Source: Candidatus Fermentithermobacillaceae bacterium DTU015
GTDB taxonomy: Bacteria > Bacillota > Sulfobacillia > Fermentithermobacillales > Fermentithermobacillaceae
Assembly (NCBI GenBank): GCA_001513185.1
Contig: LFST01000046.1
Coordinates: 171,739 to 235,738 of the forward strand
DNA: 64,000 nt
Direction of reading: 5' to 3'
Numbering within the stretch: position 1 is the first letter of the stretch; each line of letters starts with the position of its first letter. Made by a program: the position numbers and the translations under genes. Below the pieces are notes generated by a model, which worked only from the letters and a program-made list of their open reading frames with translations, was not told the origin of the DNA and searched no databases. Positions 4,167 through 54,409 of this stretch are shown here, in pieces.

Positions 4167-5276
4167 ATGAGGGTCTTGCATATTATCACTGATACCAACA
4201 TAGGCGGGGCGGGCAGGTACTTACTGAACCTGTTGGCCCAGCCTGCGTTTGACGATATCGACGTAGTGGTGGCGTGTCCTGACGGGGATTTGGCTGAACG
4301 GATAGACAATGCAGGGCTCACGCGGATAAACATCTCGGGCAGGGACACATCTTTTTCAGTACCTCTTACCTTTGAACTCATGAAGGTGATGAGAAAGGTA
4401 AGGCCTTGTTTGGTCCATACCCATTCCAGCCTGTCAGGCAGGATTGCCGCACGGGTATTGGGGATACCCGTCGTCTACACCAAGCACAACCTGGTAAGGA
4501 TTCCGTCGGCCGGAGGCAAGATCCCTCCGCCTGCAGGGCCTATTAAGCAGAGGCTCAACCGGATGGCCGCCAAGATGTTGGCCGATGCGGCTATAGCCGT
4601 GTCCCGGGGTGTGTACGACGAACTCATCGAGTCTGGGTTGGACGAGTCCATGGTGCACTGCGTGCAGAACGGTATTGATCTTGGCCCCTACAAGCCCGTG
4701 GATTTGGCCAAGAAGCGTGCCGGAAGCGATACCGTGGTAATCGGTACCGTTGCCCGCCTCCATCCTCAAAAGGCCCTGGAAGTGATGCTGGATGCGGCTA
4801 AACTTGTGGTAGCGTCTTTGCCTGCGGCCAGGTTCGTGATAGGCGGTACCGGCCCTATGGAGCAGTTGTTGAAAGAGAGGATCGCCGAATTAAGGCTGGA
4901 ACCCTACGTCAAAATGGTGGGGTTTGTTGAAGACGTCCCGGGGTTTTTGTCCGGGTTGGACATATATGCCTTGTCTTCTGATTACGAAGGGTTACCCCTG
5001 GCCGTGCTTGAAGCCATGGCAGCAGGGCTCCCGATTGCCTCAACCGCAGTAGGCGGTGTGCCTGAAGCCGTAATCGACGGGGAGAACGGTTTTCTGGTTC
5101 CCCCCAGAAACAGCCGTTTGCTCGCCCAGGCCATAGTAAGGCTGGCTGTAGATCCTGAGCTAGCTGCCCGTATGGGGGCACAAAGCCGCAAACGGATGGA
5201 AGAACTGTTCGACGCCAAGATCATGGCCCGCAAGACTGTGGAAGTGTATCACAAGGTGCTGAAACACAGGGGATAG
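4167..5276 (+). CDS. GT4 (group 1) glycosyltransferase
   Basis: C-terminal EGLPLAVLEAMAAGLPIASTAVGGVPE GT4 signature. Confidence 0.85.
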   Translation: MRVLHIITDTNIGGAGRYLLNLLAQPAFDDIDVVVACPDGDLAERIDNAGLTRINISGRDTSFSVPLTFELMKVMRKVRPCLVHTHSSLSGRIAARVLGIPVVYTKHNLVRIPSAGGKIPPPAGPIKQRLNRMAAKMLADAAIAVSRGVYDELIESGLDESMVHCVQNGIDLGPYKPVDLAKKRAGSDTVVIGTVARLHPQKALEVMLDAAKLVVASLPAARFVIGGTGPMEQLLKERIAELRLEPYVKMVGFVEDVPGFLSGLDIYALSSDYEGLPLAVLEAMAAGLPIASTAVGGVPEAVIDGENGFLVPPRNSRLLAQAIVRLAVDPELAARMGAQSRKRMEELFDAKIMARKTVEVYHKVLKHRG

Positions 5277-5300
5277 CCCCGGGTGTTTCAGCACCTGATT

Positions 5301-7088
5301 TCAAGCCCGCCTAAACTGTGCCTGGTACAGGTTGGCGTACCGGCCGCCTAAGGCAACCAGTTCATCGTGGGTGCCTGATTCCGTAATCTGCCCGTCTTCG
5401 ATCACCATGATCCGGTCTGCCGACCGCACAGTAGACAGCCTATGGGCGATGATGAACGAAGTCCTGCCTTTAAGCAGCGTCTTGAGTGCCTGTTGTATGA
5501 GCTGTTCTGTTTCCGGGTCCACGCTTGAAGTAGCTTCGTCGAGGATGAGGATCCTCGGGTCAGCTAGGATCGCCCTGGCAAACGCAAGCAGTTGCCGCTG
5601 CCCTGCCGACAGGTTTGTGCCCCGCTCTGTGACTTCGGAATCATACCCTTTAGGCAGGCTTTCAATGAAATCGTGGATACATGCAGCTTTTGCTGCCCTG
5701 ACCACTTCGTCCATAGTGGCATCAGGTTTTCCGAAAAGCAGGTTGTCTTTTATTGTCCCCGAGAAAATCAGCGTGTCTTGGAGTACAATGCCCAGCTGGC
5801 TCCTGTAAGACGGCAGGCTTACTTCAGCAAGGTCATACCCGTCTACGGTGATCTTGCCCGATGAAGGCTGGTAGAACCTGGCCAGCAGGTTGATTATGGT
5901 TGTCTTGCCCGCCCCTGTGGGCCCTACCAGGGCGATGGTTTCTCCTGGGCTCACCTTGAAGCTTATTCCAGAGAGCACCTGCTCGCCGGGTTTGTATGCA
6001 AAGCTTACGTTTTCGAATACAACTTCTCCTTCCAGCCGTGGAAGTTCAATGTACCCTTCCTGCGCTGAAGACCCTGTTTCCGGCTTGAGGTCGAGCACGG
6101 TAAACACCCTTTCAGCCGAAGCCATGGCCGAAAGCACTTGGCTCCACACCCTTGAGAACGTGCTTATAGGTGCCCAGAACTTGCCCAGGTAGTTCACAAA
6201 GGCCCACACCAAGCCTATGGTCATGGTACCTTGGACTACTGCATTTGCACCATACCAGATCACGATTGCCGTGCCCATGGCGCCCACGATATCTGTAAGC
6301 GGCCAGAAGGCCTGGTCCAGCCTGATGGCGCGCATATATGCATCGAAGTATTTCTTGTTAAATTCCCTGAACTTGGCGCTGTTGTGCTTTTCATAGCCGT
6401 ATGCCTGTATCACAGATAGGCCTTGTATGGTTTCGTTAAGATGGGCGTTGATGCTGGCAACCGCCTTGCGGGTGTCTCCCCAGGCATCTTCAAGCGCCCA
6501 CCTTACCTTGGTCAGCACGAACCCAAGCAGGGGGATGGTGACAAACGACAGCAGCGCCATCTTCCAATGGAGATACAGCATAATGCCTACGATACCTACT
6601 AAGGATATAAGCTGGCTTACCAGGTTCACAATCCCTGACGCCGCCAGGTTGCCTATGTGGTTTACGTCGTTGGTGATCCTTGACACGATTTTCCCGGCAG
6701 GCCTGCGATCGAAGAATACAAACGGCAGGGATTGGATGTGGGTGAATAAGTTTTGCCGCAGGTCGTACAGCACCTGCTGGCCCAATATGTTTATGGTTCT
6801 TACCTGGGCCCGCGATGCCGCCCACTGGATGAACCTGAGGACAAGCAGCACGGCCAATGTAACCACAAGTATCCTTACGTTGCCCGGCGTTATCCCGTCA
6901 TCGATGGCTTTCCTGAACAGCAAAGGCTCTACAAGGCCTATGATTATCCCCGTAAGGGTGAGGATTGAAGCCTTTATGGCAGTTTTCCTGTAAGGCCGGG
7001 TATACCCCAGTATCCTAAGGAAATATTCCATGTTAAACGGCCGTTCTTCTGCTTCTTCAATGAGCTCATCAAGGTCGTATTCTGACAT
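5301..7088 (-). CDS. ABC exporter, fused permease/ATP-binding subunit
   Basis: 6-TM N-terminal domain plus NBD with Walker A GPTGAGKTT, signature LSAGQRQ and Walker B ILILDEATS. Confidence 0.9.
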   Translation of the reverse strand: MSEYDLDELIEEAEERPFNMEYFLRILGYTRPYRKTAIKASILTLTGIIIGLVEPLLFRKAIDDGITPGNVRILVVTLAVLLVLRFIQWAASRAQVRTINILGQQVLYDLRQNLFTHIQSLPFVFFDRRPAGKIVSRITNDVNHIGNLAASGIVNLVSQLISLVGIVGIMLYLHWKMALLSFVTIPLLGFVLTKVRWALEDAWGDTRKAVASINAHLNETIQGLSVIQAYGYEKHNSAKFREFNKKYFDAYMRAIRLDQAFWPLTDIVGAMGTAIVIWYGANAVVQGTMTIGLVWAFVNYLGKFWAPISTFSRVWSQVLSAMASAERVFTVLDLKPETGSSAQEGYIELPRLEGEVVFENVSFAYKPGEQVLSGISFKVSPGETIALVGPTGAGKTTIINLLARFYQPSSGKITVDGYDLAEVSLPSYRSQLGIVLQDTLIFSGTIKDNLLFGKPDATMDEVVRAAKAACIHDFIESLPKGYDSEVTERGTNLSAGQRQLLAFARAILADPRILILDEATSSVDPETEQLIQQALKTLLKGRTSFIIAHRLSTVRSADRIMVIEDGQITESGTHDELVALGGRYANLYQAQFRRA

Positions 7089-7133
7089 AACCCAGGCAGC
7101 GGGATAAGCTGCCTTTTTCCTCCCTTCGTTAGC

Positions 7134-8930
7134 TCATGCATCTTGGCTTACATGGTTTGGATTTGAGGCGTTTTCCAGTTCGAGGCTTAGTGCCAACTCC
7201 ACATCCTGTTCGGCGAACTGGCTTTCAAACAGTTTCTTGTAGAATCCAGGTTGGGACAAAAGCTCCAGATGGGTGCCTACTTGCGAGATCTTCCCGTCTT
7301 TTAAGATCACAATCTTGTCTGCATCCCTAATGGTAGACAGCCGTTTGGCGATGATGATGGTGGTCCGGTTTTCCATCACGTGGCTGAGCCCTTCCTGGAT
7401 CAAGTATTCAGTTTCCGTGTCTACGCTGGATGTGGCTTCATCGAGTATTAAGATTTTCGGGTCAGTCAAGATAGCCCTGGCAAGCGCAACCCGCTGCTTC
7501 TGTCCGCCTGAAAGCCCGATGCCCCGTTCACCCAGAGGGGTGTCATAGCCTTTGGGGAACTCAGATATAAATCCGTGGGCCTGAGCCAGCTCTGCCGCCT
7601 GGATGATCTCCTCCAGGGAAGCGTCAGGCTTTCCCAATGAGATGTTTTCCCTGACGGTGGCAGAGAACAGGAAATTTTCCTGGAGCACAAGCCCGATGTT
7701 CTTCCGCAAGGATTTCAGCGATATTTCCCTTAAGTCATGGCCGTCAAGGGTGATCCGGCCTGAAGTTGGATCCAGAAAGCGCGGGATGAGGTTAACCAAG
7801 GTTGACTTGCCCGAACCTGTCCCGCCTACGATGGCCACCGTCTCCCCGGGTAATATTTCAAGGTTTATGTTTTCCAGAGTCTTGCGGTCATCCCCTGGGA
7901 AGCAGAAGTCCACGTTTTCAAATACTATGTGCCCCTTTACTTGTTCCAGTTCCACAGGGTCCGGGCAATCCTTGATCTCAGGCTCAGTGTCCAAGAGTTC
8001 AAACAACCGGGGCGCTGCAGCCAAGGATTGTTCCGCCATGTTTACAAGCCAGCCCAGCATTCTAACCGGCCATATAAGGCTCCACAGCAGGGAATAGAAC
8101 GCAAACAACGTGCCTACCGTCATCTGTCCTGACAGTACAAGGTATCCGCCGTAACCTATCATACTTACTGCCGAAAGGCCGGTGAGCAGTTCGAGGAAAG
8201 GCTGGGCCCTGGCTTCTATGTCCGCCCGCTCCAGGTTGGCCTCGTAATGCTCTAGGTTTCTTCGGGCAAACTTCCTGATCTCCTCAGGTTCCCTGGCAAA
8301 CGCCTTTACCACCCTGATCCCAGTGATATTTTCCTGGAGGGTTTCGGTTAGCTTGCCCATCTTCTCCCTTACGTTTTTCCATGCCGGCCTCACGTTCCGG
8401 TCGAACCAGAACACAGTGCGGAACAGGAACGGAAAGGTCACTACCGTAGCGAGCATAAGCCGCCAGTTGAGGTAGGCCAGGTATGAGCTCACCCCGACTG
8501 TCATGAGCACCATGCTCACCAGGAACAGGGCGCCCCAGCCAATGAAATCCTGAACTGAGTGAATGTCGCTGGTGAGCCTTGCCATGACCTGCCCCGTGCC
8601 CATGGTTGAGAAATACGACGGGGGCAGGGTTTGGAGGTGATCGTGGATCTGTTGCCTCATTTGAAAGATCACTTCTTGCCCGATGAGTTCCGATGTGTAC
8701 CATTGGATGTATAGTACGATTCCTTTGAGCACCGCCACACCCACAAAGCCCAGGCATAGCTTCGCCAGCAGCGGCAGATCCTTTTGGGGCAAAGCTACGT
8801 CCACTATCTGCCTGAGCAACATGGCAGGAGACATCTCCAGCACTGTGGCAGCTGTCATGGCTAAGATCACAATTACTACGCCTATCCAGTGTGGTTTTAG
8901 GTACCCGAGAAGCCTTTTTAGATCTGACAT
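7134..8930 (-). CDS. ABC exporter, fused permease/ATP-binding subunit (heterodimer partner)
   Basis: TMD plus NBD with GGTGSGKST, LSGGQKQR and ILILDEATSSVD. Adjacent to and co-oriented with 5301..7088. Confidence 0.9.
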   Translation of the reverse strand: MSDLKRLLGYLKPHWIGVVIVILAMTAATVLEMSPAMLLRQIVDVALPQKDLPLLAKLCLGFVGVAVLKGIVLYIQWYTSELIGQEVIFQMRQQIHDHLQTLPPSYFSTMGTGQVMARLTSDIHSVQDFIGWGALFLVSMVLMTVGVSSYLAYLNWRLMLATVVTFPFLFRTVFWFDRNVRPAWKNVREKMGKLTETLQENITGIRVVKAFAREPEEIRKFARRNLEHYEANLERADIEARAQPFLELLTGLSAVSMIGYGGYLVLSGQMTVGTLFAFYSLLWSLIWPVRMLGWLVNMAEQSLAAAPRLFELLDTEPEIKDCPDPVELEQVKGHIVFENVDFCFPGDDRKTLENINLEILPGETVAIVGGTGSGKSTLVNLIPRFLDPTSGRITLDGHDLREISLKSLRKNIGLVLQENFLFSATVRENISLGKPDASLEEIIQAAELAQAHGFISEFPKGYDTPLGERGIGLSGGQKQRVALARAILTDPKILILDEATSSVDTETEYLIQEGLSHVMENRTTIIIAKRLSTIRDADKIVILKDGKISQVGTHLELLSQPGFYKKLFESQFAEQDVELALSLELENASNPNHVSQDA

Positions 8931-40084: not shown

Positions 40085-40546
40085 CTACTCCTGGCCACCG
40101 TTGCCGACATATACGATCTGGCCTGACGGTAAGAGTCCTAGGTTATCTACTGAAGGATCTGCGGTGATAAGGGTCCCGCCGGAAACCTTGGCAAGGTACA
40201 CACACAAGCTTGTGCCCGGCTCAAGCCCTTGATGTTCCGACATGAGCCTTGCGGCTTCCAGGGCGCCTTCCTGGGTGACAGGTTCCACCTGGAGGGGGAG
40301 CTGGTCAAGCAATGCAAGCAGTTCCGCAAAGCAGTCAGGGTGCTGGGCAAGCCCTTTGTGGTATACGTGGACCATGTCCAGCGCCGTGATGCTCACTTTC
40401 GCCCCGCTGGCGTGGGCTTGTTCCAGGAGCCTCTGAACTACCTGCCCTTTCGGCGTGCCCTCCAGATACGCCATCAGCGCCGGAGCGTCGATTATGCAAG
40501 CTGAGTCACCGCACACTGACGGGCTATCATGACTGGCTGGCTTCAT
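40085..40546 (-). CDS. PIN-domain toxin (VapC-like)
   Basis: Conserved acidic residues in IIDAPAL and LITAD. SD GGAGA 9 nt upstream. Overlaps the upstream antitoxin by 20 nt. Confidence 0.65.
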   Translation of the reverse strand: MKPASHDSPSVCGDSACIIDAPALMAYLEGTPKGQVVQRLLEQAHASGAKVSITALDMVHVYHKGLAQHPDCFAELLALLDQLPLQVEPVTQEGALEAARLMSEHQGLEPGTSLCVYLAKVSGGTLITADPSVDNLGLLPSGQIVYVGNGGQE

Positions 40547-40757
40547 CAGTATGCTCTCCTTGACCGGTGTGTTTCCTGCTGAAAAAACCCAGCCCGTATC
40601 CTACCGGGTCGTCTACTTCAGGCACCAGTACCACCTTGCCGTCAAGGTCGTATACGGCAAACTTGGTTCCGGGCTTAAGGCCCAGCTTATTTCTTATATG
40701 TGCCGGGATGACTATCTGGCCTCTTGTAGAAAGGGACGTTTTGTGCAATGGATTCAC
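40527..40757 (-). CDS. AbrB/MazE/SpoVT-family antitoxin
   Basis: Swapped-hairpin motif TRGQIVIPAHIRNKLGLKPGTKF. Immediately upstream of the PIN gene. Confidence 0.65.
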   Translation of the reverse strand: MNPLHKTSLSTRGQIVIPAHIRNKLGLKPGTKFAVYDLDGKVVLVPEVDDPVGYGLGFFSRKHTGQGEHTDEASQS

Positions 40758-40980
40758 CTCGCATACAAGCTACAGGCCTGCTGCTTACTGTGGCCATGGC
40801 GGATTTTGAGGGCGACGTAACCCCCGTATCCTTCCTAGTATGTCCGAAATTACAGGAGGATAGCAGTTGTGCTCGATTGTGTAAATTGGCTGCAAACGTT
40901 GAAATTATGTTGCAAGTTGGAGAACATATACTCAAGCGGTTGCCACAGGCTTAATCAGTGATAAATGCGGAGGTGCTAAC

Positions 40981-46006: not shown

Positions 46007-47029
46007 TTACCTGTGGCGGGCTAAAACACGCCTCGTGCCGTCCTGGATTTCATCAGGCTCCAGGCGGCGTTGCTTGAGCCACCCCCTACGTATTCCCACG
46101 CCTGGCTTGTGTCTTTGTGCCGGCGGTTGTACCGGCGTCTTGATACACTGAGATGGCTGCTTTGAGACAGGTTTTGCTATTACCGACTCGCCGTCAGGCG
46201 ACAAGCTTATCTGGACTTCCTGTCCGTGTTTGCCGGGAGCCTCAGGCGGAGGCGGTCCGACTGGGGTGCTAGCCGGCTTTGACCTGGACTTTTCCAGCCC
46301 AGCCAAAAAGTTGACCAAAGAAACTATGAGCTTGGGGTCTAATCCAAAGCTGCCTTGGGAGGAAGCAGTTGGCTCCTCCTTAGATACCGCGGCTGCGTCG
46401 CCGGAGGCTTCAGGAGCTGAAGCGGGTTTACTCCTGGTCAAGGATGGGATCAGTTTCAGGATAGCCGAAATCAGGTTAGGGTCGATTCCCCCTTGTTTGC
46501 TGCCAAGGAGCAACGGTAACGCAGAAAGCAAGGGCGCCAGAGCATCAGGTTTAGCTGCCCCGCCTTGGGTACCTGGCAGTCCGGCCGGCTGCGCTTGTGT
46601 TTGGATGCTGCCTTGTGTGGCGGCCGGCTGTGCTATAGCCTCTGCAACGGGACTGTCTTTTGGTGAACCGGAGCTGCCGGCTGATGTTTCCGGGCCGGTG
46701 TCGCTCGGGGCAGCCTGTGTAGCCGGCCGGTCATCTCCGGTGGTATCAGGCCTGCCTGCGTCTAGCCCGGCTTCGTCCAAGCCGGTTCTGCGAGGGGCCG
46801 AAACCTCTTGCAGCTCGCCGGCGGCGTAAAACACTTCCAAAATCCCCATGAGGTTAAGCAGTGCAAGCAGTCCTGCTTTTTCCCGGACCCAAGCAGGATC
46901 ACCGGCACCTTCACTAGTCAAGCAAACCTGGGCAAGCCGGCTAAGGCTGCCGTTACTCACCGTTTGCTCCACTCCGTCCAAAGAAGCCAGCAAACTCCGG
47001 AGGTACTTTTCCACCCAACACGCCTCCAA
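46007..47029 (-). CDS. Pro/Ala/Ser/Gly/Gln-rich low-complexity protein
   Basis: Long ORF co-oriented with and overlapping the 3' end of the ybaB-like gene. Start ambiguous (GTG/TTG candidates between 46963 and 47029). Amphipathic segments among low-complexity tracts. Confidence 0.45.
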   Translation of the reverse strand: MEACWVEKYLRSLLASLDGVEQTVSNGSLSRLAQVCLTSEGAGDPAWVREKAGLLALLNLMGILEVFYAAGELQEVSAPRRTGLDEAGLDAGRPDTTGDDRPATQAAPSDTGPETSAGSSGSPKDSPVAEAIAQPAATQGSIQTQAQPAGLPGTQGGAAKPDALAPLLSALPLLLGSKQGGIDPNLISAILKLIPSLTRSKPASAPEASGDAAAVSKEEPTASSQGSFGLDPKLIVSLVNFLAGLEKSRSKPASTPVGPPPPEAPGKHGQEVQISLSPDGESVIAKPVSKQPSQCIKTPVQPPAQRHKPGVGIRRGWLKQRRLEPDEIQDGTRRVLARHR

Positions 47030-47303
47030 TTTCGGTCCTCAGCAAGGCCCGGGCCTTTCTGATGGCGTCGTTGACCGCCAGGGCTATTGCCTCTTCCAGC
47101 GTGGCCAAATCAAAAGGCCGCTCAGCCAGTTTGTTCCGGTCGATGGTTATGTGTTTGATGTTGAACCAGATATCTCCGGTTACCTTGACCAGCCCATCGT
47201 TGGCAGTGCCTTCCACCGTCATATCTTGCAGGTTTGACAATCTTGTGTTTACCTCGGACTCGATTTTTTCCATCTGCATGAGTAAACTCGCGAGGTTGTG
47301 CAC
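46953..47303 (-). CDS. YbaB/EbfC-family nucleoid-associated protein paralog
   Basis: GLVKVTGD and LEEAIALAVNDAIRKA blocks. GTG start 7 nt after SD GGAGGGAAC. Confidence 0.7.
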   Translation of the reverse strand: MHNLASLLMQMEKIESEVNTRLSNLQDMTVEGTANDGLVKVTGDIWFNIKHITIDRNKLAERPFDLATLEEAIALAVNDAIRKARALLRTEIGGVLGGKVPPEFAGFFGRSGANGE

Positions 47304-47626: not shown

Positions 47627-47938
47627 TTATGAATGAGATACCGGGTCACTTCCGCTTGACATGGTGAATGCCTGCACTAACCACAAAACTACCAGGATGA
47701 TGAACAAGGAAAACGCAGAATCAACCCTGGAAGCCAGGAGGTTCTTGGCTTGTTCCGCCAAAGCCGCGAGTTCGACGCCGTCAGCCAATGAAGCCGAACT
47801 CTCTGCAAGGCTGATCAGGGTATCTATCACATCCCGGCCCCTCTCTCCGGTAAACGGCCTTAGCGCCGAGACCAGGTCCAGCGTTTCCTTGGAAAGACTG
47901 TTGGCCACTGTAAGCCCTCCTTTTCGAGAAATGGTCAA
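47627..47938 (-). CDS. hypothetical protein with C-terminal TM helix
   Basis: 103-aa ORF directly upstream of and co-oriented with the small-peptide gene. TTG start, no strong SD. Confidence 0.4.
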   Translation of the reverse strand: MTISRKGGLTVANSLSKETLDLVSALRPFTGERGRDVIDTLISLAESSASLADGVELAALAEQAKNLLASRVDSAFSLFIILVVLWLVQAFTMSSGSDPVSHS

Positions 47939-48126: not shown

Positions 48127-49164
48127 ATGGATATAGCTTCTGTGTTTAGGAAGAAGGCCGAAGATGATCCTGCCATGGACGAGATCCGGATGGAACGGGC
48201 TGAGGAGCTGCATTCTGAGTGCTTGGTCATTGACGGACACCAGGGAACGCTGCTGGATGTGTTTAAGGGAGTCAGGAAGTTTGAAGAGGAATCTTCAGCG
48301 GGGCATTCTGATTTGCCGCGGCTAAAGCAGGCACAAGTGGATTGCGTAATCCTCAGTGCATTTCCCTATGACAGGTTACATCCCATACGTGGAGTACGGC
48401 AGGCTCTTGAGTACATAGACGTGTTTCACCGGTTGGCCAAAGTGCCTGGGCTAAGGCAAGTACTGCGGACCTCAGACATTGAAGATGCCAGAGAAGCCGG
48501 CGAGGTCGGTATCATGCTCAGCCTGGGCGATGGCGCTATGCTTGAAGGCAGCCTTGAGGCCCTCAGGATGTATCACAAACTGGGGGTGAGGATGCTGACG
48601 CTAACCTGGAACGAGAGGAATCAGCTGGGTGACGGTGCCGCGTTTTCCGTTTCCAGGGGCGGGCTTACCCCGTTCGGGTTCAAGGTGGTGAAAGAAGCAG
48701 CCAGGTTAGGCATGGTTATAGACGTAGCCCACCTGTCTGAAGCCGGGTTCTGGGATGTGTTGGATGTGGCCCAGGCCCCCTTTGTGGTAAGCCACGCCAA
48801 CTGTCACGCTTTGCTTGCCCATCCAAGGAACCTTACAGATGCCCAGCTTAAGGCGATCGGTGAAGCCGGAGGGCTGGTTGGAATTTCATTCAACCACGAA
48901 TACATTACCGGCACTGACGAAAAAGCCACCATTTCCCAGGTTGCGGATCACATCATCCACGCCATGGAGGTGGCCGGCGAAGACAGCGTGGGTTTGGGCA
49001 CGGACTTTGACAGTTTTGGAGAACCTGGGCCGGATCCTGTAACCCACATAGGCAAACTACCCCTGCTTACATTGGAACTTCTCAAGCGGGGTGTAACCGG
49101 ACAGCAGATAGAATCGCTCTTAGGCCGGAACTGGATGCGCGTCTTAAGAGCCGTGATGGGATAA
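48127..49164 (+). CDS. membrane dipeptidase (peptidase family M19)
   Basis: M19 blocks [34 protein letters not shown] and GLGTDFD. The true start may be ATG 48175. Confidence 0.85.
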
Positions 49165-49184
49165 GCAATGGGAGGCCCCAAGTC

Positions 49185-50762
49185 TTGGCTGTGAAAGTGC
49201 TCGTAGGGATGAATGCATTTAAGGGGAGTTTGCCGGCTCAAAAGGCGTGCGCCCTGGTTGCAGCCGGGTTCAGGCGGGGTTTTCCCGAAGCCCGTGTGGT
49301 TGAAATCCCCCTTGCCGACGGCGGCGACGGTACCCTGGATGTGCTGGTAGGTGCAAGATCGGGGACGAGCCAATATATGGAAGTAACCGGGCCTTACAAC
49401 CAGCCGGTAAAGTGCAAGCTGGGTTGGCTTCCAGGGGGCACGGCCGTCATAGAAAGTGCAGCATGCTCAGGACTTGCCCTGGCTGCGCCTGAGGAGCGGG
49501 ATGTGTTTTCTGCTACAAGTTACGGAGTAGGACAGCTAATGGCCCTGGCCGCTGACAGAGGCGCCCGCCGTGTAATCGTGGGGATAGGCGGCACTGCCAT
49601 GAATGACGGCGGCATAGGTATGGTGCAAGCAGCCGGAGGCAGGGTGCTTGACGGAGAAGGCCGCCAGGTTCCGCGAGGCATCTACGGGCTGAGGCAGGTG
49701 TCCCGGGTTGAACCCGGCGATATCCCGGAAAGGTTCAAAGGTATTGAGGTAATAGGGATTTGCGATGTTGACAGCCCTCTTACAGGACCTCAGGGCGCGA
49801 CCTGGGTGTATGGGCCCCAGAAGGGGCTCAAAGGGCAGGAACTCCATGAAGTGGATGGTTACATGGACCGGTACGGCCAGGTGCTGGCCAGGGACCTGGG
49901 GCGGGATCCCAGGGGACTACCCAGGGCAGGGGCCGGCGGCGGACTGGCTGCGGCCCTGTGGGCGTTTTTCGGTGCGAGCCTTGTGGACGGAGCAGGTTTC
50001 ATATTGGAAGAGACAGGCTTCCTGGATGAAATAGAAGGTGCGGCCCTTGTGATTACAGGCGAAGGCAGGATAGATTCCCAGACTCAGAAAGGGAAGGTGC
50101 CATATGCCGTAGCCAAGGCCGGATTTGAGCGGGGAGTGCCCGTGATAGCCCTCGGCGGCAGTTTGGACGGGGATGTGCTTACCGGCTACCCCCCTGAGTT
50201 TTCAGCGGTATTTGACAGTACAACCGGCCCTGGCACGGTGTGCCAAGCTATTGAAATGGCGGAACTTAGCTTGCCTTTTGTTGCAAGGCAGCTTGCACAG
50301 CTCACCAGGGCGGTGGTGCTCAAGGGCCCGGTGGCCAGGCGGGAGGTGTGTGCCGGGGGAGTGGTGTTCAGAAAACGTAACGGCAGGCGAGAGGTGCTCT
50401 TGATTGAAGACAGGTTCGGCTACCTGGCCCTGCCCAAAGGCCATGTGGATCAGGGAGAGACCCTTGAACAAGCCGCACTAAGGGAAGTCAAGGAGGAAAC
50501 AGGGCTTGACTGCGAGATTCTGGCTTATGCAGGGCCGTGTACATACAGGTTTTTCGGCAGCGGAGATGCAGGGAATGCCGGATGTTCGGTGGTTGAGAAG
50601 ACTGTTCATTATTATGCCATGAACCACACAGGGGGAGCACTTACACCCCAGCCAGGGGAAACTACCCGGGTGATGTGGGTCGGCCTGGATGATCTAAGCC
50701 GCATTAGGTCATATCCCGATACCAAGCCGCTCATCGAAAAAGCTGCAGAGCTATTGCCATAA
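49185..50762 (+). CDS. glycerate kinase fused to a C-terminal NUDIX hydrolase domain
   Basis: GlxK/GarK family N-terminal ~380 aa ([32 protein letters not shown]). C-terminal ~140 aa with a perfect Nudix box [23 protein letters not shown]. Confidence 0.85.
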
Positions 50763-50916: not shown

Positions 50917-51597
50917 ATGGAAAACCGCATTCGCTTTGTACTTAGACTGTTTTTGCTTGTGTGTGTTTATGGGCTAATTGGCACCTTGGTGATGCGTCTG
51001 ATCTGGTTTGGCGATTCGTTTGTGTTCTTGACCGTAGAAGAATCCTCTCTGAATGCCATCACCGGATGGCCGCTGAGCATGCCTCAGGGACCCCGGGTGT
51101 TCATTGACGCCCGGGAAAGGACGTTGGTGATCCCTGAGAAACGGAACCTCTTGGGTGTGTGCCTGGGAGTGTACTACAGTGCCACCTCCCAAGGTGTTGG
51201 ATTTGACGAGCGCCTGATCTTTTCCATAACAGGCAAAGCCGGCTTGGATCTTACCGCACCTGCGTCTTTGGTGGTTCCGGGGATAGGCGGCGGTGAAGTG
51301 GAACTTGTGAACAACCTGGCTAGGGTGGTTGCCGGGGACCTCAAAGTGCTGGCTACCAAACGGGACGGTACGGTTGAAATAGAGTACGGCTCAAGGCGCA
51401 TTACCCTAAGCCCCGGTGAATCCTGGGCCGAGCTCTTGGTGCTAGAGCCCGGCGGGCCCAGGGCGGTGTCGGCAGACAATTGGCAGGAAGAGTTGGACAG
51501 GTGCGTGAGCTTGGGATACCCAGCCACACGGCTGGCGATAGCCAACAGGGGGCTCTGGCCCAAATCCGGGGTTAAGGCAGGGATAGGCTATGAGTAA
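50917..51597 (+). CDS. hypothetical N-terminally membrane-anchored protein
   Basis: One N-terminal TM helix, 226 aa. Overlaps the start of the downstream large gene by 8 nt. Confidence 0.5.
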   Translation: MENRIRFVLRLFLLVCVYGLIGTLVMRLIWFGDSFVFLTVEESSLNAITGWPLSMPQGPRVFIDARERTLVIPEKRNLLGVCLGVYYSATSQGVGFDERLIFSITGKAGLDLTAPASLVVPGIGGGEVELVNNLARVVAGDLKVLATKRDGTVEIEYGSRRITLSPGESWAELLVLEPGGPRAVSADNWQEELDRCVSLGYPATRLAIANRGLWPKSGVKAGIGYE

Positions 51598-54409
51598 GAG
51601 GCGCCGGGTCAGAGCCCGCAAGCATCCACATGGGGGAAGGAGTCTGCCGGCGAAGGCCAAGAACTTGACGGGCCGTGCCGGGAGCTTGACCGGCAGTGTC
51701 AGGAACTTACATGGCCGTGCCGCTGCGTTTGCGGTGATTCTGTGTATACTGGCAAACATCACGGTGGCCTCCGGTGCAGCTGCTTCTTCCAGGACCGCCC
51801 AAGTAAGTGATGCTCCGTGGAAACCTCTGGTGCTCATCGGGGAGCCGGCCCAAAAAGAAGGTGGAAGTATATGGGATAAAGCGGGGCTTGTCTCCAGGCT
51901 GAAAGCCGCAGGTTACAAGCCAGGTGAGAGTTTGTTTGTGTACACCCCGGAGGAACCTTACGGGGACTTGGATTCAGGCGCCCGTATTTTACGCCAGCTG
52001 TTGGATGAGGTAGTAAGCGCCACTGGATGCAAACTTTTGGATGTGGCCGCCTACGGAGTGTCGGGGCTGGTGCTGAGGTTTGGGCTGGAAACGGGGATCA
52101 TCCAAGATGGCTTGGTAGATACTGCGATCATGTTAAGTTCGCCCCAACGAGGTTCTTTCCTGGCTGACCTATTGCATCAGGCGTGTACTGTGGTGGAGCA
52201 CGAGTGTATGTTTGAACGGGAAACTAGGTATCAAAGGTTTTCCCCTTTCGGAGATGTGGGGGCTGCTTTGGATCCCAAGGCGGTGACCGCCAAGAGCACG
52301 GGCGGGCTGCCTGGCTCTATAGGTACCGCCATGTTTTCCTGGGAGGGAGAAGCATGGTGGGTGGCGCAAAGGGCCCGGGAACTCTACGAGCCTCTGTACA
52401 GCCAGTACGTGCAGGAGAGGTTCCTGTCGCTTCCGTACGTGCCGGTGGATTCGCCTAGCCAGACCTTTGCCGGGTGGATAAAGCAAAACCGCCCCCTTAT
52501 ATGGGAAAACTGCATCGCAGGGGCGGGCGAGCCGCCGTTTGGGGCCATGCCGGATACTGCCCTGAGTGGACCGCCTCAAGCGGGGCAGGATTTCACTACA
52601 GCATATTACGAGCTCCTTGCCATGGCAGTCGGCAGGAACCAATACGTCCTAAGGATGGCTGCTGCGGGCAGCCTGGTCCAGAGCTTGTTGTCATCCCCGG
52701 GAGGCCCTATGCCAGGTAGCCTCAAGGACGCCATCATACAGTACGGGCTCAAAGCGCTGGTGCACTACGCCAAGAAAGCGCTGGTGACCGTCAAGGCGGA
52801 AATCCAGAGGATCATAGCAGACACCATCGTGGGCTCGGTAGGATACCTGGACGGCCCGGATAGCAAGTTCTTGAGGAGGCTGGTCAAAGAAGAAGTCCTG
52901 GTCAATTTAGGCACTTCGTCAGGCCAGAGGTTCTACAGGGTACCTGCCAACTACTATCTGGGCCAGCTCAACCGGAAGTCGTCCTCAGCTGCTTCTACCC
53001 GCAACACCCGTTTTGTGACCATAACAGGCCGGGTTACCAACCTCCTGGGCTTGGTGTGGCCCCAGCTGGGCCCCAATAACCTGTTCTGCGAAGTGGATGC
53101 TGCAGTGCCGCCCCAGGGGCCTAGGGACGTAATCCGGGTGTTCTCAGGATTCCTGTCTCCGTCGTACCTTAACCTGCTCAAAGACCAAAGGGTTCAGGAT
53201 AGCATAGTGGCGATGCTGCTGGGTTCGGATGAAGTAAAGCGGTTTACGCCTGGGGCCGGCGGTCCGGAGCAGATTCCTGCGTCTAGCTGGCAACCGGCCT
53301 ATGTGTCCCCTGTCTGGGATGACAGCCAAGGACAGGTGTTCGAGGTTTCAGTGAACCTACCTTCGTTGCCTGAAGGATGGGAGTGTGCCGTGTGGATCGA
53401 GGGCTATGACGGAGGGCGGTGGCTGCGTGTGCCCGGTTGGTACCAAGTGCTTTCCGGAGGAACCAAAACAGAGTTGCTGCTCAAGGACGGCTCGTACAGG
53501 GTTGGCGTGCGTCTGGTCAGGACAGGAACGCTGAACCCTTATACCCCCGGTGGCAAAGTTGAGTCTGCGTTTGAACGTGAGGTAGTGGGCAAGATCTGGG
53601 TCAGCGTGCAAGGTTTGGCCGGATCTGGCACCGGTCAAGCCGGCGGTGCCGGAAATCCCCAAGTTCCTGGTGCCGGCGGTGGTGAGCCGGGGAACGTTTC
53701 CCAGGACCCACGTCACGGCCAAGGCTACGAGCCAGGAATTGTCCCTCCCGGCATGGGTCAAGCTACCGATATTCCCGGAGCGGGGGAACAAGGGAACCCC
53801 GATTCTCCTGGGGCTTGGACAGGTGAAGGGGATATCCCTAGCGTGAGAGTGGTCTACAGGTCCAAACACACTACCTTGTGGAAACCCCAGGAGACGTATC
53901 ATGCATATTGGGAGATCGATTTCGGGGATGGGGAAACCATTGTGGTGCAAGGGCAGCCTAATCTGGAGATAAGCCACACATTTAGCCCCTCAGGCCGTTA
54001 CCTGGTGCGGGCGGTTTCGTACGATAATCATAACCAGATGCTGTTTGAGAAAAGCTGGCATGTATTGACGGGAGATCAGCCGGAACTTAGGCAATTCCAG
54101 TGTTCCAGTATTATCCCGCCCGAGGTAGAATTAGAACTGACCGGGCCCAAGAAGTGGGTCACCGGTAAGCATGCGTTGTTCTCAGGCAAGGCGCAGTGGA
54201 AATTGCCAGCCGGGGCACGTGTGGTGGCCGCTGAGTGCGATCCCGGAGAGAATTTTCACGTGCTCTGGGAGCGCTCAGGAGAGTTTACGGTGCTCTGGGC
54301 GGTTAGACTCACCATAGACTATGAACTAGAGGACAGGGTAATCAGGGTAAAGAATACCTATCTTACGCAAACACAGGTGGATGTGTTTACCCCGGGGATT
54401 ACCCAGTGA
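51590..54409 (+). CDS. large secreted/cell-surface protein: N-terminal TM/signal, lipase-like alpha/beta fold, Gly/Pro-rich linker, PKD domain
   Basis: N-terminal hydrophobic segment AAAFAVILCILANITVA. Lipase-like block with AYGVSG at the expected GxSxG position. PKD-like WEIDFGDGETIV...SHTFSPSGRYLVRAVSYDN. G/P-rich low-complexity linker. Confidence 0.7.
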   Translation: MSKRRRVRARKHPHGGRSLPAKAKNLTGRAGSLTGSVRNLHGRAAAFAVILCILANITVASGAAASSRTAQVSDAPWKPLVLIGEPAQKEGGSIWDKAGLVSRLKAAGYKPGESLFVYTPEEPYGDLDSGARILRQLLDEVVSATGCKLLDVAAYGVSGLVLRFGLETGIIQDGLVDTAIMLSSPQRGSFLADLLHQACTVVEHECMFERETRYQRFSPFGDVGAALDPKAVTAKSTGGLPGSIGTAMFSWEGEAWWVAQRARELYEPLYSQYVQERFLSLPYVPVDSPSQTFAGWIKQNRPLIWENCIAGAGEPPFGAMPDTALSGPPQAGQDFTTAYYELLAMAVGRNQYVLRMAAAGSLVQSLLSSPGGPMPGSLKDAIIQYGLKALVHYAKKALVTVKAEIQRIIADTIVGSVGYLDGPDSKFLRRLVKEEVLVNLGTSSGQRFYRVPANYYLGQLNRKSSSAASTRNTRFVTITGRVTNLLGLVWPQLGPNNLFCEVDAAVPPQGPRDVIRVFSGFLSPSYLNLLKDQRVQDSIVAMLLGSDEVKRFTPGAGGPEQIPASSWQPAYVSPVWDDSQGQVFEVSVNLPSLPEGWECAVWIEGYDGGRWLRVPGWYQVLSGGTKTELLLKDGSYRVGVRLVRTGTLNPYTPGGKVESAFEREVVGKIWVSVQGLAGSGTGQAGGAGNPQVPGAGGGEPGNVSQDPRHGQGYEPGIVPPGMGQATDIPGAGEQGNPDSPGAWTGEGDIPSVRVVYRSKHTTLWKPQETYHAYWEIDFGDGETIVVQGQPNLEISHTFSPSGRYLVRAVSYDNHNQMLFEKSWHVLTGDQPELRQFQCSSIIPPEVELELTGPKKWVTGKHALFSGKAQWKLPAGARVVAAECDPGENFHVLWERSGEFTVLWAVRLTIDYELEDRVIRVKNTYLTQTQVDVFTPGITQ

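What the first reader, a model, noticed from the sequence alone, without database searches (positions are those of the whole stretch)
49185..50762. Glycerate kinase fused to a C-terminal NUDIX hydrolase domain
The N-terminal ~380 aa is a complete GlxK/GarK-type glycerate kinase. The C-terminal ~140 aa (approx nt 50337-50759) is a NUDIX fold with a textbook Nudix box [23 protein letters not shown]. These activities are normally separate proteins. A covalent kinase-pyrophosphohydrolase pairing suggests coupled nucleotide or metabolite processing (for example ADP-ribose or ADP-glycerate turnover) and is not a commonly annotated architecture.
Basis: partly seen in the sequence, partly recalled or inferred. 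Interest (0 to 1): 0.55.

Follow-up and report, generated by a model that had tools for sequence, protein, structure and literature searches.

The report
Conserved glycerate kinase–Nudix fusion protein
This is a real, inherited gene in an uncultured group of heat-loving Bacillota that joins a complete glycerate kinase to a small Nudix enzyme of the kind that breaks down diadenosine polyphosphates; the combination is rare and unstudied, but both halves are ordinary members of well-known families.

Summary
Window 49185-50762 (+) is one 525-aa ORF with a full-length class-I glycerate kinase domain (aa 5-373) and a Nudix domain (aa ~385-525) with a perfect Nudix box. It is not a read-through artefact. 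The identical protein occurs in dozens of independent assemblies. About 57 clusters, down to 46% identity, carry both domains in one ORF. Both domain trees show a single fusion clade, and the two halves have diverged in step. The only split copies are frameshifted, with breaks at different positions. The architecture is rare: 4 of more than 7,500 GK-family representatives in an exhaustive search. One of those four carries a different, MutT-type Nudix and is an independent fusion. The carriers are Candidatus Fermentithermobacillaceae-like Bacillota, and public records name the protein only 'glycerate kinase'. No paper describing the fusion was found. Both domains look catalytically competent, but how or whether they are coupled is inference only. 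My best guess is coupling through the adenine-nucleotide pool. Interest is modest: a new, conserved domain architecture built from known parts.

The parts
49185..50762 (+). Whole GK-Nudix ORF (525 aa plus stop). TTG start at 49185; alternative GTG start at 49191.
   Evidence: identical protein P0001 in 42 collection blocks
49170..49175 (+). GGGAGG Shine-Dalgarno-like sequence, 9 nt before the TTG and 6 nt after the stop codon of the upstream M19 gene (20-nt gap between the two ORFs)
   Evidence: read directly
49197..50303 (+). Class-I (GlxK/GarK-type) glycerate kinase domain, aa 5-373. All family motifs are retained ([46 protein letters not shown]).
   Evidence: fold TM 0.84-0.87 to 3cwc and 1to6
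50304..50336 (+). Junction: end of the C-terminal GK helix (aa 359-379) plus a 5-residue linker (aa 380-384). No gaps in 22 of 25 aligned homologues.
50337..50759 (+). Nudix domain of Ndx1/Ap4A-hydrolase type, aa 385-525
50439..50507 (+). Nudix box [23 protein letters not shown] (aa 419-441). G419, H420, E425, R433, E434, E437, E438, T439 and G440 are invariant in 25 fusion proteins.
50562..50579 (+). Six-residue loop insertion specific to this species (about aa 460-465, GDAGNA). It is the only low-confidence part of the model.
48127..49164 (+). Peptidase_M19 dipeptidase gene immediately upstream on the same strand (20-nt gap), a probable operon partner. The pairing is kept in relatives down to 47% identity but is absent next to P0216.
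50917..54409 (+). Downstream co-directional pair overlapping by 8 nt: a 226-aa protein with an N-terminal hydrophobic segment (50917-51597) and a 939-aa protein with a weak PKD match (51590-54409). It is conserved next to GK-Nudix even in the distant P0216 locus. It belongs to the neighbourhood; a functional link is not shown.

Best explanation
A genuine, vertically inherited bifunctional protein of Candidatus Fermentithermobacillaceae-like Bacillota. The N-terminal 375 aa is a complete class-I glycerate kinase (ATP + D-glycerate -> phosphoglycerate + ADP, feeding lower glycolysis). Whether it makes 2-PG or 3-PG is not determined. The C-terminal ~140 aa is an Ndx1/Ap4A-hydrolase-type Nudix pyrophosphohydrolase with an intact Mg-binding Nudix box. 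It most likely cleaves adenine dinucleoside polyphosphates (Ap4A-Ap6A) or closely related adenine polyphosphates to ATP/ADP/AMP. The fusion arose once in the ancestor of this lineage, from a stand-alone GK like that of Caldinitratiruptor, and has been kept with both active sites intact and only a 5-residue linker. Shown: the fusion is real, conserved, of single origin, has catalytic motifs intact, and the Nudix subfamily is assigned by homology. Inferred (about 0.25): any functional coupling runs through the shared adenine-nucleotide pool and not through glycerate. On this view the Nudix domain removes ApnA-type ATP-site competitors next to an ATP-dependent kinase and returns usable ATP/ADP, and the fusion ensures 1:1 co-expression, probably in an operon with the upstream M19 dipeptidase.
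For: Both domains match at full length with strong scores. P0001 is 100% identical and is recorded in 42 blocks of independent assemblies. 57 clusters at 46-100% identity, mostly 500-571 aa (a few shorter, truncated records), all carry PF02595 + PF00293. The alignment of 25 shows invariant GK motifs, an invariant Nudix box and an ungapped junction. The fusion proteins are monophyletic for the GK domain (55 of 55, against 63 stand-alone GKs; 40 of 40 bootstraps) and for the Nudix domain (against 65 stand-alone Nudix proteins plus Ndx1). Pairwise identities of the two halves correlate at r = 0.82. Split members of one cluster are frameshifted copies with breaks at different sites. The Nudix profile hits 3i7u Ap4A hydrolase (5.6e-27), Ndx1 Ap6A hydrolase (1.8e-24), CT771, C. 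elegans Ap4A hydrolase and MutT1. Fold TM is 0.86-0.89 to 3i7u and 1vc8. K418/H420 and Y510 align with K36/H38 and Y121 of the C. elegans enzyme. The AF2 model has pLDDT 91.4 and pTM 0.83, with helix 359-379 running almost directly into strand 385. The M19 gene lies directly upstream on the same strand in the window and in L005, L006 and L007, and in L004 with one MobA-like gene between.
Against: No biochemical data exist for any member. Nudix substrate specificity is notoriously hard to predict from sequence. The closest characterised relatives are only 34-37% identical, and MutT1, a near structural neighbour, acts on 8-oxo-(d)GTP and even on phospho-NDK (PMC11784022). Nothing ties ApnA to glycerate kinase in the literature searched. 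Synteny across this lineage is conserved over more than 15 kb, so adjacency to M19 is weak evidence for an operon, and P0216 lacks it. A pTM of 0.83 suggests a defined domain arrangement, but coordinates and PAE could not be inspected, so the geometry of the two active sites is unknown.
Confidence: 0.5

Rival explanations
1. Selectively near-neutral fusion. Two unrelated housekeeping enzymes (a glycerate kinase and an ApnA/NTP-sanitising Nudix) that were neighbours lost the intervening stop codon. Both keep working independently and there is no functional coupling.
For: Both domains look like ordinary, complete members of their families. Stand-alone relatives of each are common and are not adjacent to each other where examined. 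The architecture is confined to essentially one lineage. No literature link was found.
Against: It has been retained without fission across relatives as divergent as 46% identity, with a very short conserved junction and a confident whole-chain model. An independent GK + MutT-type Nudix fusion exists (P0276). Single examples of GK fused to Maf and to nucleotidyltransferases also exist, which hints that the pairing of GK with nucleotide enzymes is not random.
Confidence: 0.33
2. The Nudix domain acts on the kinase's own chemistry. It either hydrolyses a nucleotide-linked glycerate or phosphoglycerate species, or it works as a phosphatase or regulator of the kinase, as the MutT1 Nudix domain does on phospho-NDK.
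For: The MutT1 Nudix domain, a close structural neighbour, dephosphorylates a kinase intermediate (PMC11784022). Rare GK fusions to NTP_transferase and CTP_transf_like would fit a kinase -> nucleotidyl-activation route. The closest stand-alone Nudix, P0124, lies among lower-glycolysis genes.
Against: The nucleotidyltransferase fusions are singletons on short contigs. No NDP-glycerate pathway is known in Bacillota (my own knowledge). Class-I GK is not known to use a phospho-enzyme intermediate (my own knowledge). The best homology is to ApnA hydrolases, with adenine- and phosphate-binding residues conserved.
Confidence: 0.12
3. The Nudix domain is a non-catalytic ligand-sensing module (as in NrtR) that regulates the kinase allosterically.
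For: Non-catalytic Nudix domains typically occur in multidomain proteins (PMC5389931). The NrtR Nudix domain appears among the fold matches (rank 25).
Against: All Nudix-box catalytic residues (E425, R433, E434, E437, E438) are invariant in 25 divergent sequences. Regulatory Nudix domains usually have degenerate boxes (my own knowledge).
Confidence: 0.03
4. Sequencing or assembly artefact: two adjacent genes joined by a lost stop codon or a frameshift in this contig.
For: Some members of a related 90% cluster are split (381 + 136 aa, 311 + 185 aa).
Against: Those split copies have out-of-frame tails and break at different positions, so they are the errors. The intact ORF is identical in many independent runs. 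It is conserved in 57 clusters, including a complete 2.3-Mb genome, CP062796.1.
Confidence: 0.02

Closest known systems
Class-I glycerate kinases (GlxK/GarK; PF02595, TIGR00045; structures 3cwc Salmonella, 1to6 Neisseria)
   Same: Full-length domain at 38% identity to 3cwc. All conserved motifs and the fold are retained.
   Different: Known members are stand-alone proteins of about 380 aa; this one carries a C-terminal Nudix domain. It scores below the equivalog cut-offs for both GarK (2-kinase) and GlxK (3-kinase), so its regiospecificity is unknown.
Thermus thermophilus Ndx1 (Ap6A hydrolase, ATP-forming; 1vc8) and Aquifex aeolicus Ap4A hydrolase (3i7u)
   Same: These are the best sequence and fold matches to the Nudix half (E 1.8e-24 and 5.6e-27; TM 0.86-0.89; 34-37% identity). 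They share AGGVV, DRxG, PKGH, the Nudix box, and a Tyr 13 residues after the box as in Ndx1.
   Different: They are single-domain proteins of 126-134 aa. Here the domain is fused behind a kinase, and its substrate is untested.
Mycobacterial MutT1 / Rv2985 (Nudix + histidine-phosphatase two-domain protein)
   Same: Its Nudix domain is a close relative (E about 1e-13; Foldseek E 3e-12 to 1e-11). It is also a Nudix fused to a second phosphoryl-transfer domain, has diadenosine polyphosphatase activity according to PDB entry 9cxx, and regulates a kinase (NDK) (PMC11784022).
   Different: The partner domain and the domain order differ (Nudix at the N-terminus, RHG phosphatase at the C-terminus). No histidine-phosphatase domain is present here.
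NadM-Nudix (bifunctional NMN adenylyltransferase / ADP-ribose pyrophosphatase; 2qjo)
   Same: It is a precedent for a metabolic nucleotide-utilising enzyme fused to a C-terminal Nudix domain.
   Different: Its Nudix subfamily is different (ADP-ribose pyrophosphatase) and so is its partner. Matches here are weak (E about 1e-4).
P0276-type GK + MutT-like Nudix fusion (metagenomic, 2 contigs)
   Same: Same domain order and a similar size (544 aa).
   Different: Its Nudix is of the MutT/NudG type (NUDIX_4, 'WEFPGGK'), only 26% identical to this one. Its GK falls outside the fusion clade and its gene context is different, so it is an independent event.

Membership tests
Class-I glycerate kinase (PF02595 / TIGR00045) | Full-length match to the family models above the curated cut-offs | tested here: met
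   PF02595: 384 bits (cut-off 23.3), profile positions 1-370 of 372. TIGR00045: 348 bits (cut-off 168).
Class-I glycerate kinase (PF02595 / TIGR00045) | Two-domain GK-I fold | tested here: met
   The AF2 model matches 3cwc and 1to6 with TMt 0.84-0.87 and E 1e-42 to 1e-34.
Class-I glycerate kinase (PF02595 / TIGR00045) | Conserved family motifs (DGGDGT, GGTxxNDGG, GPQKG, GAGGG, TGEGxxDxQT, GKxP) | tested here: met
   They are invariant columns in 25 fusion proteins and align with 3cwc.
Class-I glycerate kinase (PF02595 / TIGR00045) | ATP-dependent phosphorylation of D-glycerate, and product regiochemistry (2-PG or 3-PG) | not testable with these tools
   The equivalog models for GarK (260 bits against 686) and GlxK (248 bits against 625) are not reached.
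Nudix hydrolase superfamily (PF00293) | Nudix box GX5EX7REUXEEXGU with catalytic Glu residues | tested here: met
   aa 419-441 fit exactly. G419, E425, R433, E434, E437, E438 and G440 are invariant.
Nudix hydrolase superfamily (PF00293) | Alpha/beta/alpha Nudix fold | tested here: met
   TMt 0.86-0.89 to 3i7u and 1vc8; pLDDT is about 90 except in one loop.
Diadenosine polyphosphate (ApnA) hydrolases of Ndx1/Ap4A-hydrolase type | Closest sequence and structure relatives are characterised ApnA hydrolases | tested here: met
   The top five PDB profile hits are all ApnA hydrolases, and the fold ranking agrees. JGI names a fragment of a 73%-identical orthologue 'diadenosine hexaphosphate hydrolase (ATP-forming)'.
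Diadenosine polyphosphate (ApnA) hydrolases of Ndx1/Ap4A-hydrolase type | Phosphate-binding Lys/His (PKGH) and adenine-stacking aromatic residues (C. elegans K36, H38, Y76, Y121; residue roles recalled from memory) | tested here: inconclusive
   K418/H420 and Y510 are invariant and align with K36/H38 and Y121. Y76 aligns with F457, and Y454 is the nearby conserved Tyr, as in Ndx1. The residue roles come from memory and were not verified in a paper (one search found none).
Diadenosine polyphosphate (ApnA) hydrolases of Ndx1/Ap4A-hydrolase type | Hydrolysis of Ap4A-Ap6A | not testable with these tools
   This needs an enzyme assay.
   Only a partial 33-aa hit to NudE (28 bits against a cut-off of 169) and weak NadM-Nudix hits. 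The positions 15-16 residues after the box are F456 and F457, and no conserved Pro is present.
MutT1 (Nudix + histidine phosphatase) | C-terminal RHG histidine-phosphatase domain | tested here: not met
   The protein ends 7 residues after the Nudix Pfam match, and no such domain is detected. NF052459 scores 41 bits against a cut-off of 475.

The most novel reading that the evidence does not exclude
Class-I glycerate kinases have a hidden functional tie to nucleotide (pyro)phosphate metabolism. They have been fused at least twice independently to Nudix hydrolases of different subfamilies. There are also examples fused to a Maf NTP pyrophosphatase, to two kinds of nucleotidyltransferase and to guanylate kinase. 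If these are real, some 'glycerate kinases' may work in an unrecognised pathway involving a nucleotide-linked glycerate or phosphoglycerate (NDP-glycerate), or may need a dedicated nucleotide-sanitising partner. The GK-Nudix protein here would be the best-conserved handle for testing that.
Probability: 0.1. Interest if true: 0.6.

Novelty: new variant of a known kind. Interest (0 to 1): 0.3.

Why it matters
If the two activities are coupled, this would be a natural example of an ATP-dependent metabolic kinase carrying its own alarmone or nucleotide-clearing module. It would also give a concrete physiological target for the poorly understood Ndx1-type ApnA hydrolases. Practically, public annotation calls these proteins simply 'glycerate kinase', which hides the second enzymatic domain. 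If the fusion is merely neutral, its main use is as a clean phylogenetic marker for the Fermentithermobacillia-like lineage. Either way the finding is incremental: both domains are standard families.

Tried and rejected
(2) The afdb50 fold library was unavailable, so I could not check UniProt/AFDB for the architecture. (3) The promoter/terminator scan found no more sites than shuffled sequence, so it gave no operon boundaries. (4) Literature searches for GK + Nudix fusion, GK + Ap4A, and Ap4A hydrolase residue roles found nothing relevant. The PGK review PMC7729029 mentions Nudix only in its reference list. (5) The first large NJ/bootstrap script timed out and was redone on a smaller set. (6) The MobA-like gene between M19 and GK-Nudix in Ca. 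F. carboniphilus was considered as a possible nucleotidyl-activation partner. I rejected this because it is a weak MobA (molybdenum cofactor) match and is absent from the other loci. (7) Base composition across the locus is unremarkable. (8) dN/dS per domain was not attempted, because the loci in hand are 60% identical or less at the protein level and synonymous sites would be saturated.

Full report
**Observation**

Window 49185-50762 (+) is a single uninterrupted ORF of 525 codons with a TTG start (sequence read).
- Pfam places a full-length Gly_kinase domain at aa 5-373 (E 9e-115, profile positions 1-370 of 372) and a NUDIX domain at aa 392-518 (E 1.4e-20).
- NCBIfam TIGR00045 'glycerate kinase' is passed at 348 bits against a cut-off of 168. 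The equivalog models for GarK (2-kinase) and GlxK (3-kinase) are not reached.
- The quoted Nudix box lies at aa 419-441 (nt 50439-50507) and fits GX5EX7REUXEEXGU exactly.

**Is the fusion real?**

Four lines of evidence say yes.
- The identical protein (P0001) is recorded in 42 blocks of the assembly collection. These come from independent sequencing runs, with the same flanking genes in each.
- A search of 5.8 billion proteins returned 57 clusters between 46% and 100% identity. They are mostly 500-571 aa long, with a few truncated records, and every one carries both Pfam domains. Stand-alone kinases of about 380 aa appear only below them in the list.
- An alignment of 25 of these proteins has an ungapped junction in 22 of them. 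The kinase motifs and the Nudix-box residues G419, H420, E425, R433, E434, E437, E438, T439 and G440 are invariant.
- One 90% cluster (P0004) does contain short members, such as 381 + 136 aa on one contig and 311 + 185 aa on another. Their sequences show out-of-frame tails, for example '...QIASSSRLYSSAAVG*' where the intact protein reads '...QIAKLSRAVLLSGRG...'. The breaks fall at different places, so these are indel errors in noisy assemblies and not an ancestral two-gene state.

**Origin and distribution**
- In neighbour-joining trees all 55 fusion proteins form one clade. This holds for the kinase domain against 63 of the nearest stand-alone kinases (40 of 40 bootstraps on a subsample). It also holds for the Nudix domain against 65 stand-alone Nudix proteins and Ndx1.
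- Pairwise identities of the two halves correlate at r = 0.82. This fits one fusion event followed by vertical co-inheritance.
- Where sources give names, they are 'Bacillota/Firmicutes bacterium', 'Candidatus Fermentithermobacillaceae bacterium' and Candidatus Fermentithermobacillus carboniphilus, a class-level Bacillota lineage. Samples include thermophilic biogas fermenters.
- An exhaustive HMM search of 1.84 billion 50%-identity representatives found more than 7,500 GK-family representatives at E <= 1e-30. Only four of them match across both domains: P0015, P0054, P0216 and P0276.
- P0216 (516 aa, 9 contigs) has an Ndx1-like Nudix. It joins the fusion clade, but with modest support (24 of 40 bootstraps).
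- The P0216 locus shares MoxR/DUF58/transglutaminase/DUF1405 neighbours with the unfused kinase of Caldinitratiruptor microaerophilus. That genome therefore plausibly represents the pre-fusion state.
- P0276 (544 aa, 2 contigs) has a MutT/NudG-type Nudix only 26% identical to this one. Its kinase lies outside the fusion clade and its gene context is unrelated, so it is an independent second fusion.

**What kind of Nudix is it?**
- A profile of the Nudix halves hits these solved structures, in order: Aquifex Ap4A hydrolase 3i7u (5.6e-27), T. thermophilus Ndx1 Ap6A hydrolase 1vc8 (1.8e-24), Chlamydia CT771 (1e-16), C. elegans Ap4A hydrolase (4e-15), mycobacterial MutT1/Rv2985 (1e-13) and human NUDT2 (7e-11).
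- The predicted structure gives the same ranking, with TM 0.86-0.89 to 3i7u and 1vc8.
- No solved chain covers both domains.
- The PKGH Lys/His and the C-terminal Tyr (Y510) align with K36/H38 and Y121 of the C. elegans enzyme. Y454 sits 13 residues after the box, as the corresponding Tyr does in Ndx1. The functional roles of these residues are from my memory and were not checked against a paper.
- ADP-ribose pyrophosphatase models give only marginal partial hits, and no conserved Pro follows the box.
- The nearest stand-alone homologues are 43% identical or less and carry only generic names.
- The domain is best described as an Ndx1/Ap4A-hydrolase-type diadenosine-polyphosphate hydrolase with an unverified substrate.

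**Structure**

AlphaFold2 run on the 25-sequence alignment gives mean pLDDT 91.4 and pTM 0.83. The final kinase helix (aa 359-379) is followed after five residues by the first Nudix strand (aa 385). The only low-confidence segment (aa 462-464) lies within a six-residue loop insertion (about aa 460-465) peculiar to this species. This suggests a compact, defined arrangement and not two domains on a flexible tether. Coordinates and PAE were not available, so the geometry of the two active sites is unknown.

**Context**
- A Peptidase_M19 dipeptidase gene ends 20 nt upstream on the same strand. A GGGAGG lies between it and the start codon.
- The M19 gene directly precedes GK-Nudix in the window and in L005, L006 and L007. 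In L004 the order is the same, but a weak MobA-like gene sits between them. These relatives range down to 47% identity.
- Downstream there is a 226-aa protein with a hydrophobic N-terminus and an overlapping 939-aa protein with a weak PKD match. Homologues of both follow the fusion gene even in the P0216 locus, which lacks M19.
- Synteny in this lineage extends over more than 15 kb, so these adjacencies are only weak evidence of a functional link.

**Mechanism**
- Shown: both catalytic centres have been conserved across the whole clade, and the fusion is stable.
- Inferred: the kinase phosphorylates D-glycerate, and the Nudix domain hydrolyses Ap4-6A or similar adenine polyphosphates.
- My preferred coupling runs through the adenine-nucleotide pool: the Nudix domain clears ATP-site competitors and returns ATP/ADP next to an ATP-dependent kinase. 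This is speculative (about 0.25).
- A neutral fusion of two independent housekeeping enzymes is nearly as likely.
- Less likely alternatives are action on a nucleotide-linked glycerate, or on the kinase itself, by analogy with the MutT1 Nudix domain dephosphorylating NDK (PMC11784022).
- A non-catalytic sensor role is disfavoured by the invariant Nudix box.

**Novelty and verdict**

No paper describing this architecture was found, and public records call the protein simply 'glycerate kinase'. It is a previously undescribed but database-visible, lineage-restricted domain architecture built from two ordinary families. Interest is modest at 0.3.

The most novel reading still open has a probability of about 0.1. 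It is that class-I glycerate kinases are systematically tied to nucleotide metabolism, given the two independent Nudix fusions plus examples fused to Maf, nucleotidyltransferases and guanylate kinase. Most of those examples are singletons and need verification.

Noticed in passing
proteins P0224, P0363, P0332, P0310, P0255, P0277, P0271: Other long GK-family representatives are fused to Maf (NTP pyrophosphatase), NTP_transferase, CTP_transf_like, guanylate kinase (N-terminal; 27 cluster members on contigs up to 961 kb), AIRS/AIRS_C, an Rrf2 regulator and TPR repeats. Most partners handle nucleotides. All except the guanylate-kinase fusion (27 members) and the Rrf2 fusion (2 contigs) are singletons on contigs of 9 kb or less and could be artefacts.
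   Followed up: partly
window 50917-51597 and 51590-54409 (+): A pair of unknown genes overlapping by 8 nt: a 226-aa protein with a hydrophobic N-terminus and no Pfam hit, and a 939-aa protein with only a sub-threshold PKD match. The pair stays next to GK-Nudix even in the distant P0216 locus L092 (E 1e-6 and 8e-46, 25% identity over the full length of the large protein). Function unknown.
   Followed up: partly
L088 (GCA_046291455.1) 4441-8913: P0124, one of the closest stand-alone homologues of the Nudix domain (40% identity), sits in a co-directional run of AhpC/TSA, Nudix, GH15 glucoamylase and pyruvate kinase. Enolase and iPGM lie a few kb away. This is a lower-glycolysis neighbourhood, the same pathway that glycerate kinase feeds. 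It is a single observation.
   Followed up: no
L004 6241-6942 (Ca. Fermentithermobacillus carboniphilus CP062796.1): A 233-aa NTP_transf_3 gene (a weak MobA-like match, 70 bits against a cut-off of 164) is inserted between the M19 dipeptidase gene and GK-Nudix in this genome only.
   Followed up: yes
L005 8598-9566: A NotI-family restriction endonuclease gene and a 304-aa unknown gene are inserted between GK-Nudix and the conserved downstream pair in GCA_050260675.1.
   Followed up: no
P0049 (571 aa), Nudix domain: One orthologue carries an insertion of about 46 residues of low-complexity sequence inside the Nudix domain, between the first two strands (alignment columns 424-470).
   Followed up: no
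window 50562-50579: A six-residue Gly/Ala-rich loop insertion (about aa 460-465) that none of the other 24 aligned fusion proteins has in full. It is the only region of the AF2 model with pLDDT below 50.
   Followed up: yes
window 46007-47303 and 47627-47938 (-): A divergently oriented block is conserved upstream of the M19 gene in the window, L004, L005 and L007: a YbaB/EbfC nucleoid-associated protein whose gene overlaps that of a 335-340-aa Pro/Ala/Ser-rich protein with no Pfam hit, plus two small unknown ORFs. L006 has the same block with only one small ORF.
   Followed up: no
window ~40085-40770 (-), by correspondence with L001 901-1564: A PIN (VapC-like) and MazE-antitoxin gene pair, also present in the distant relative L006.
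   Followed up: no
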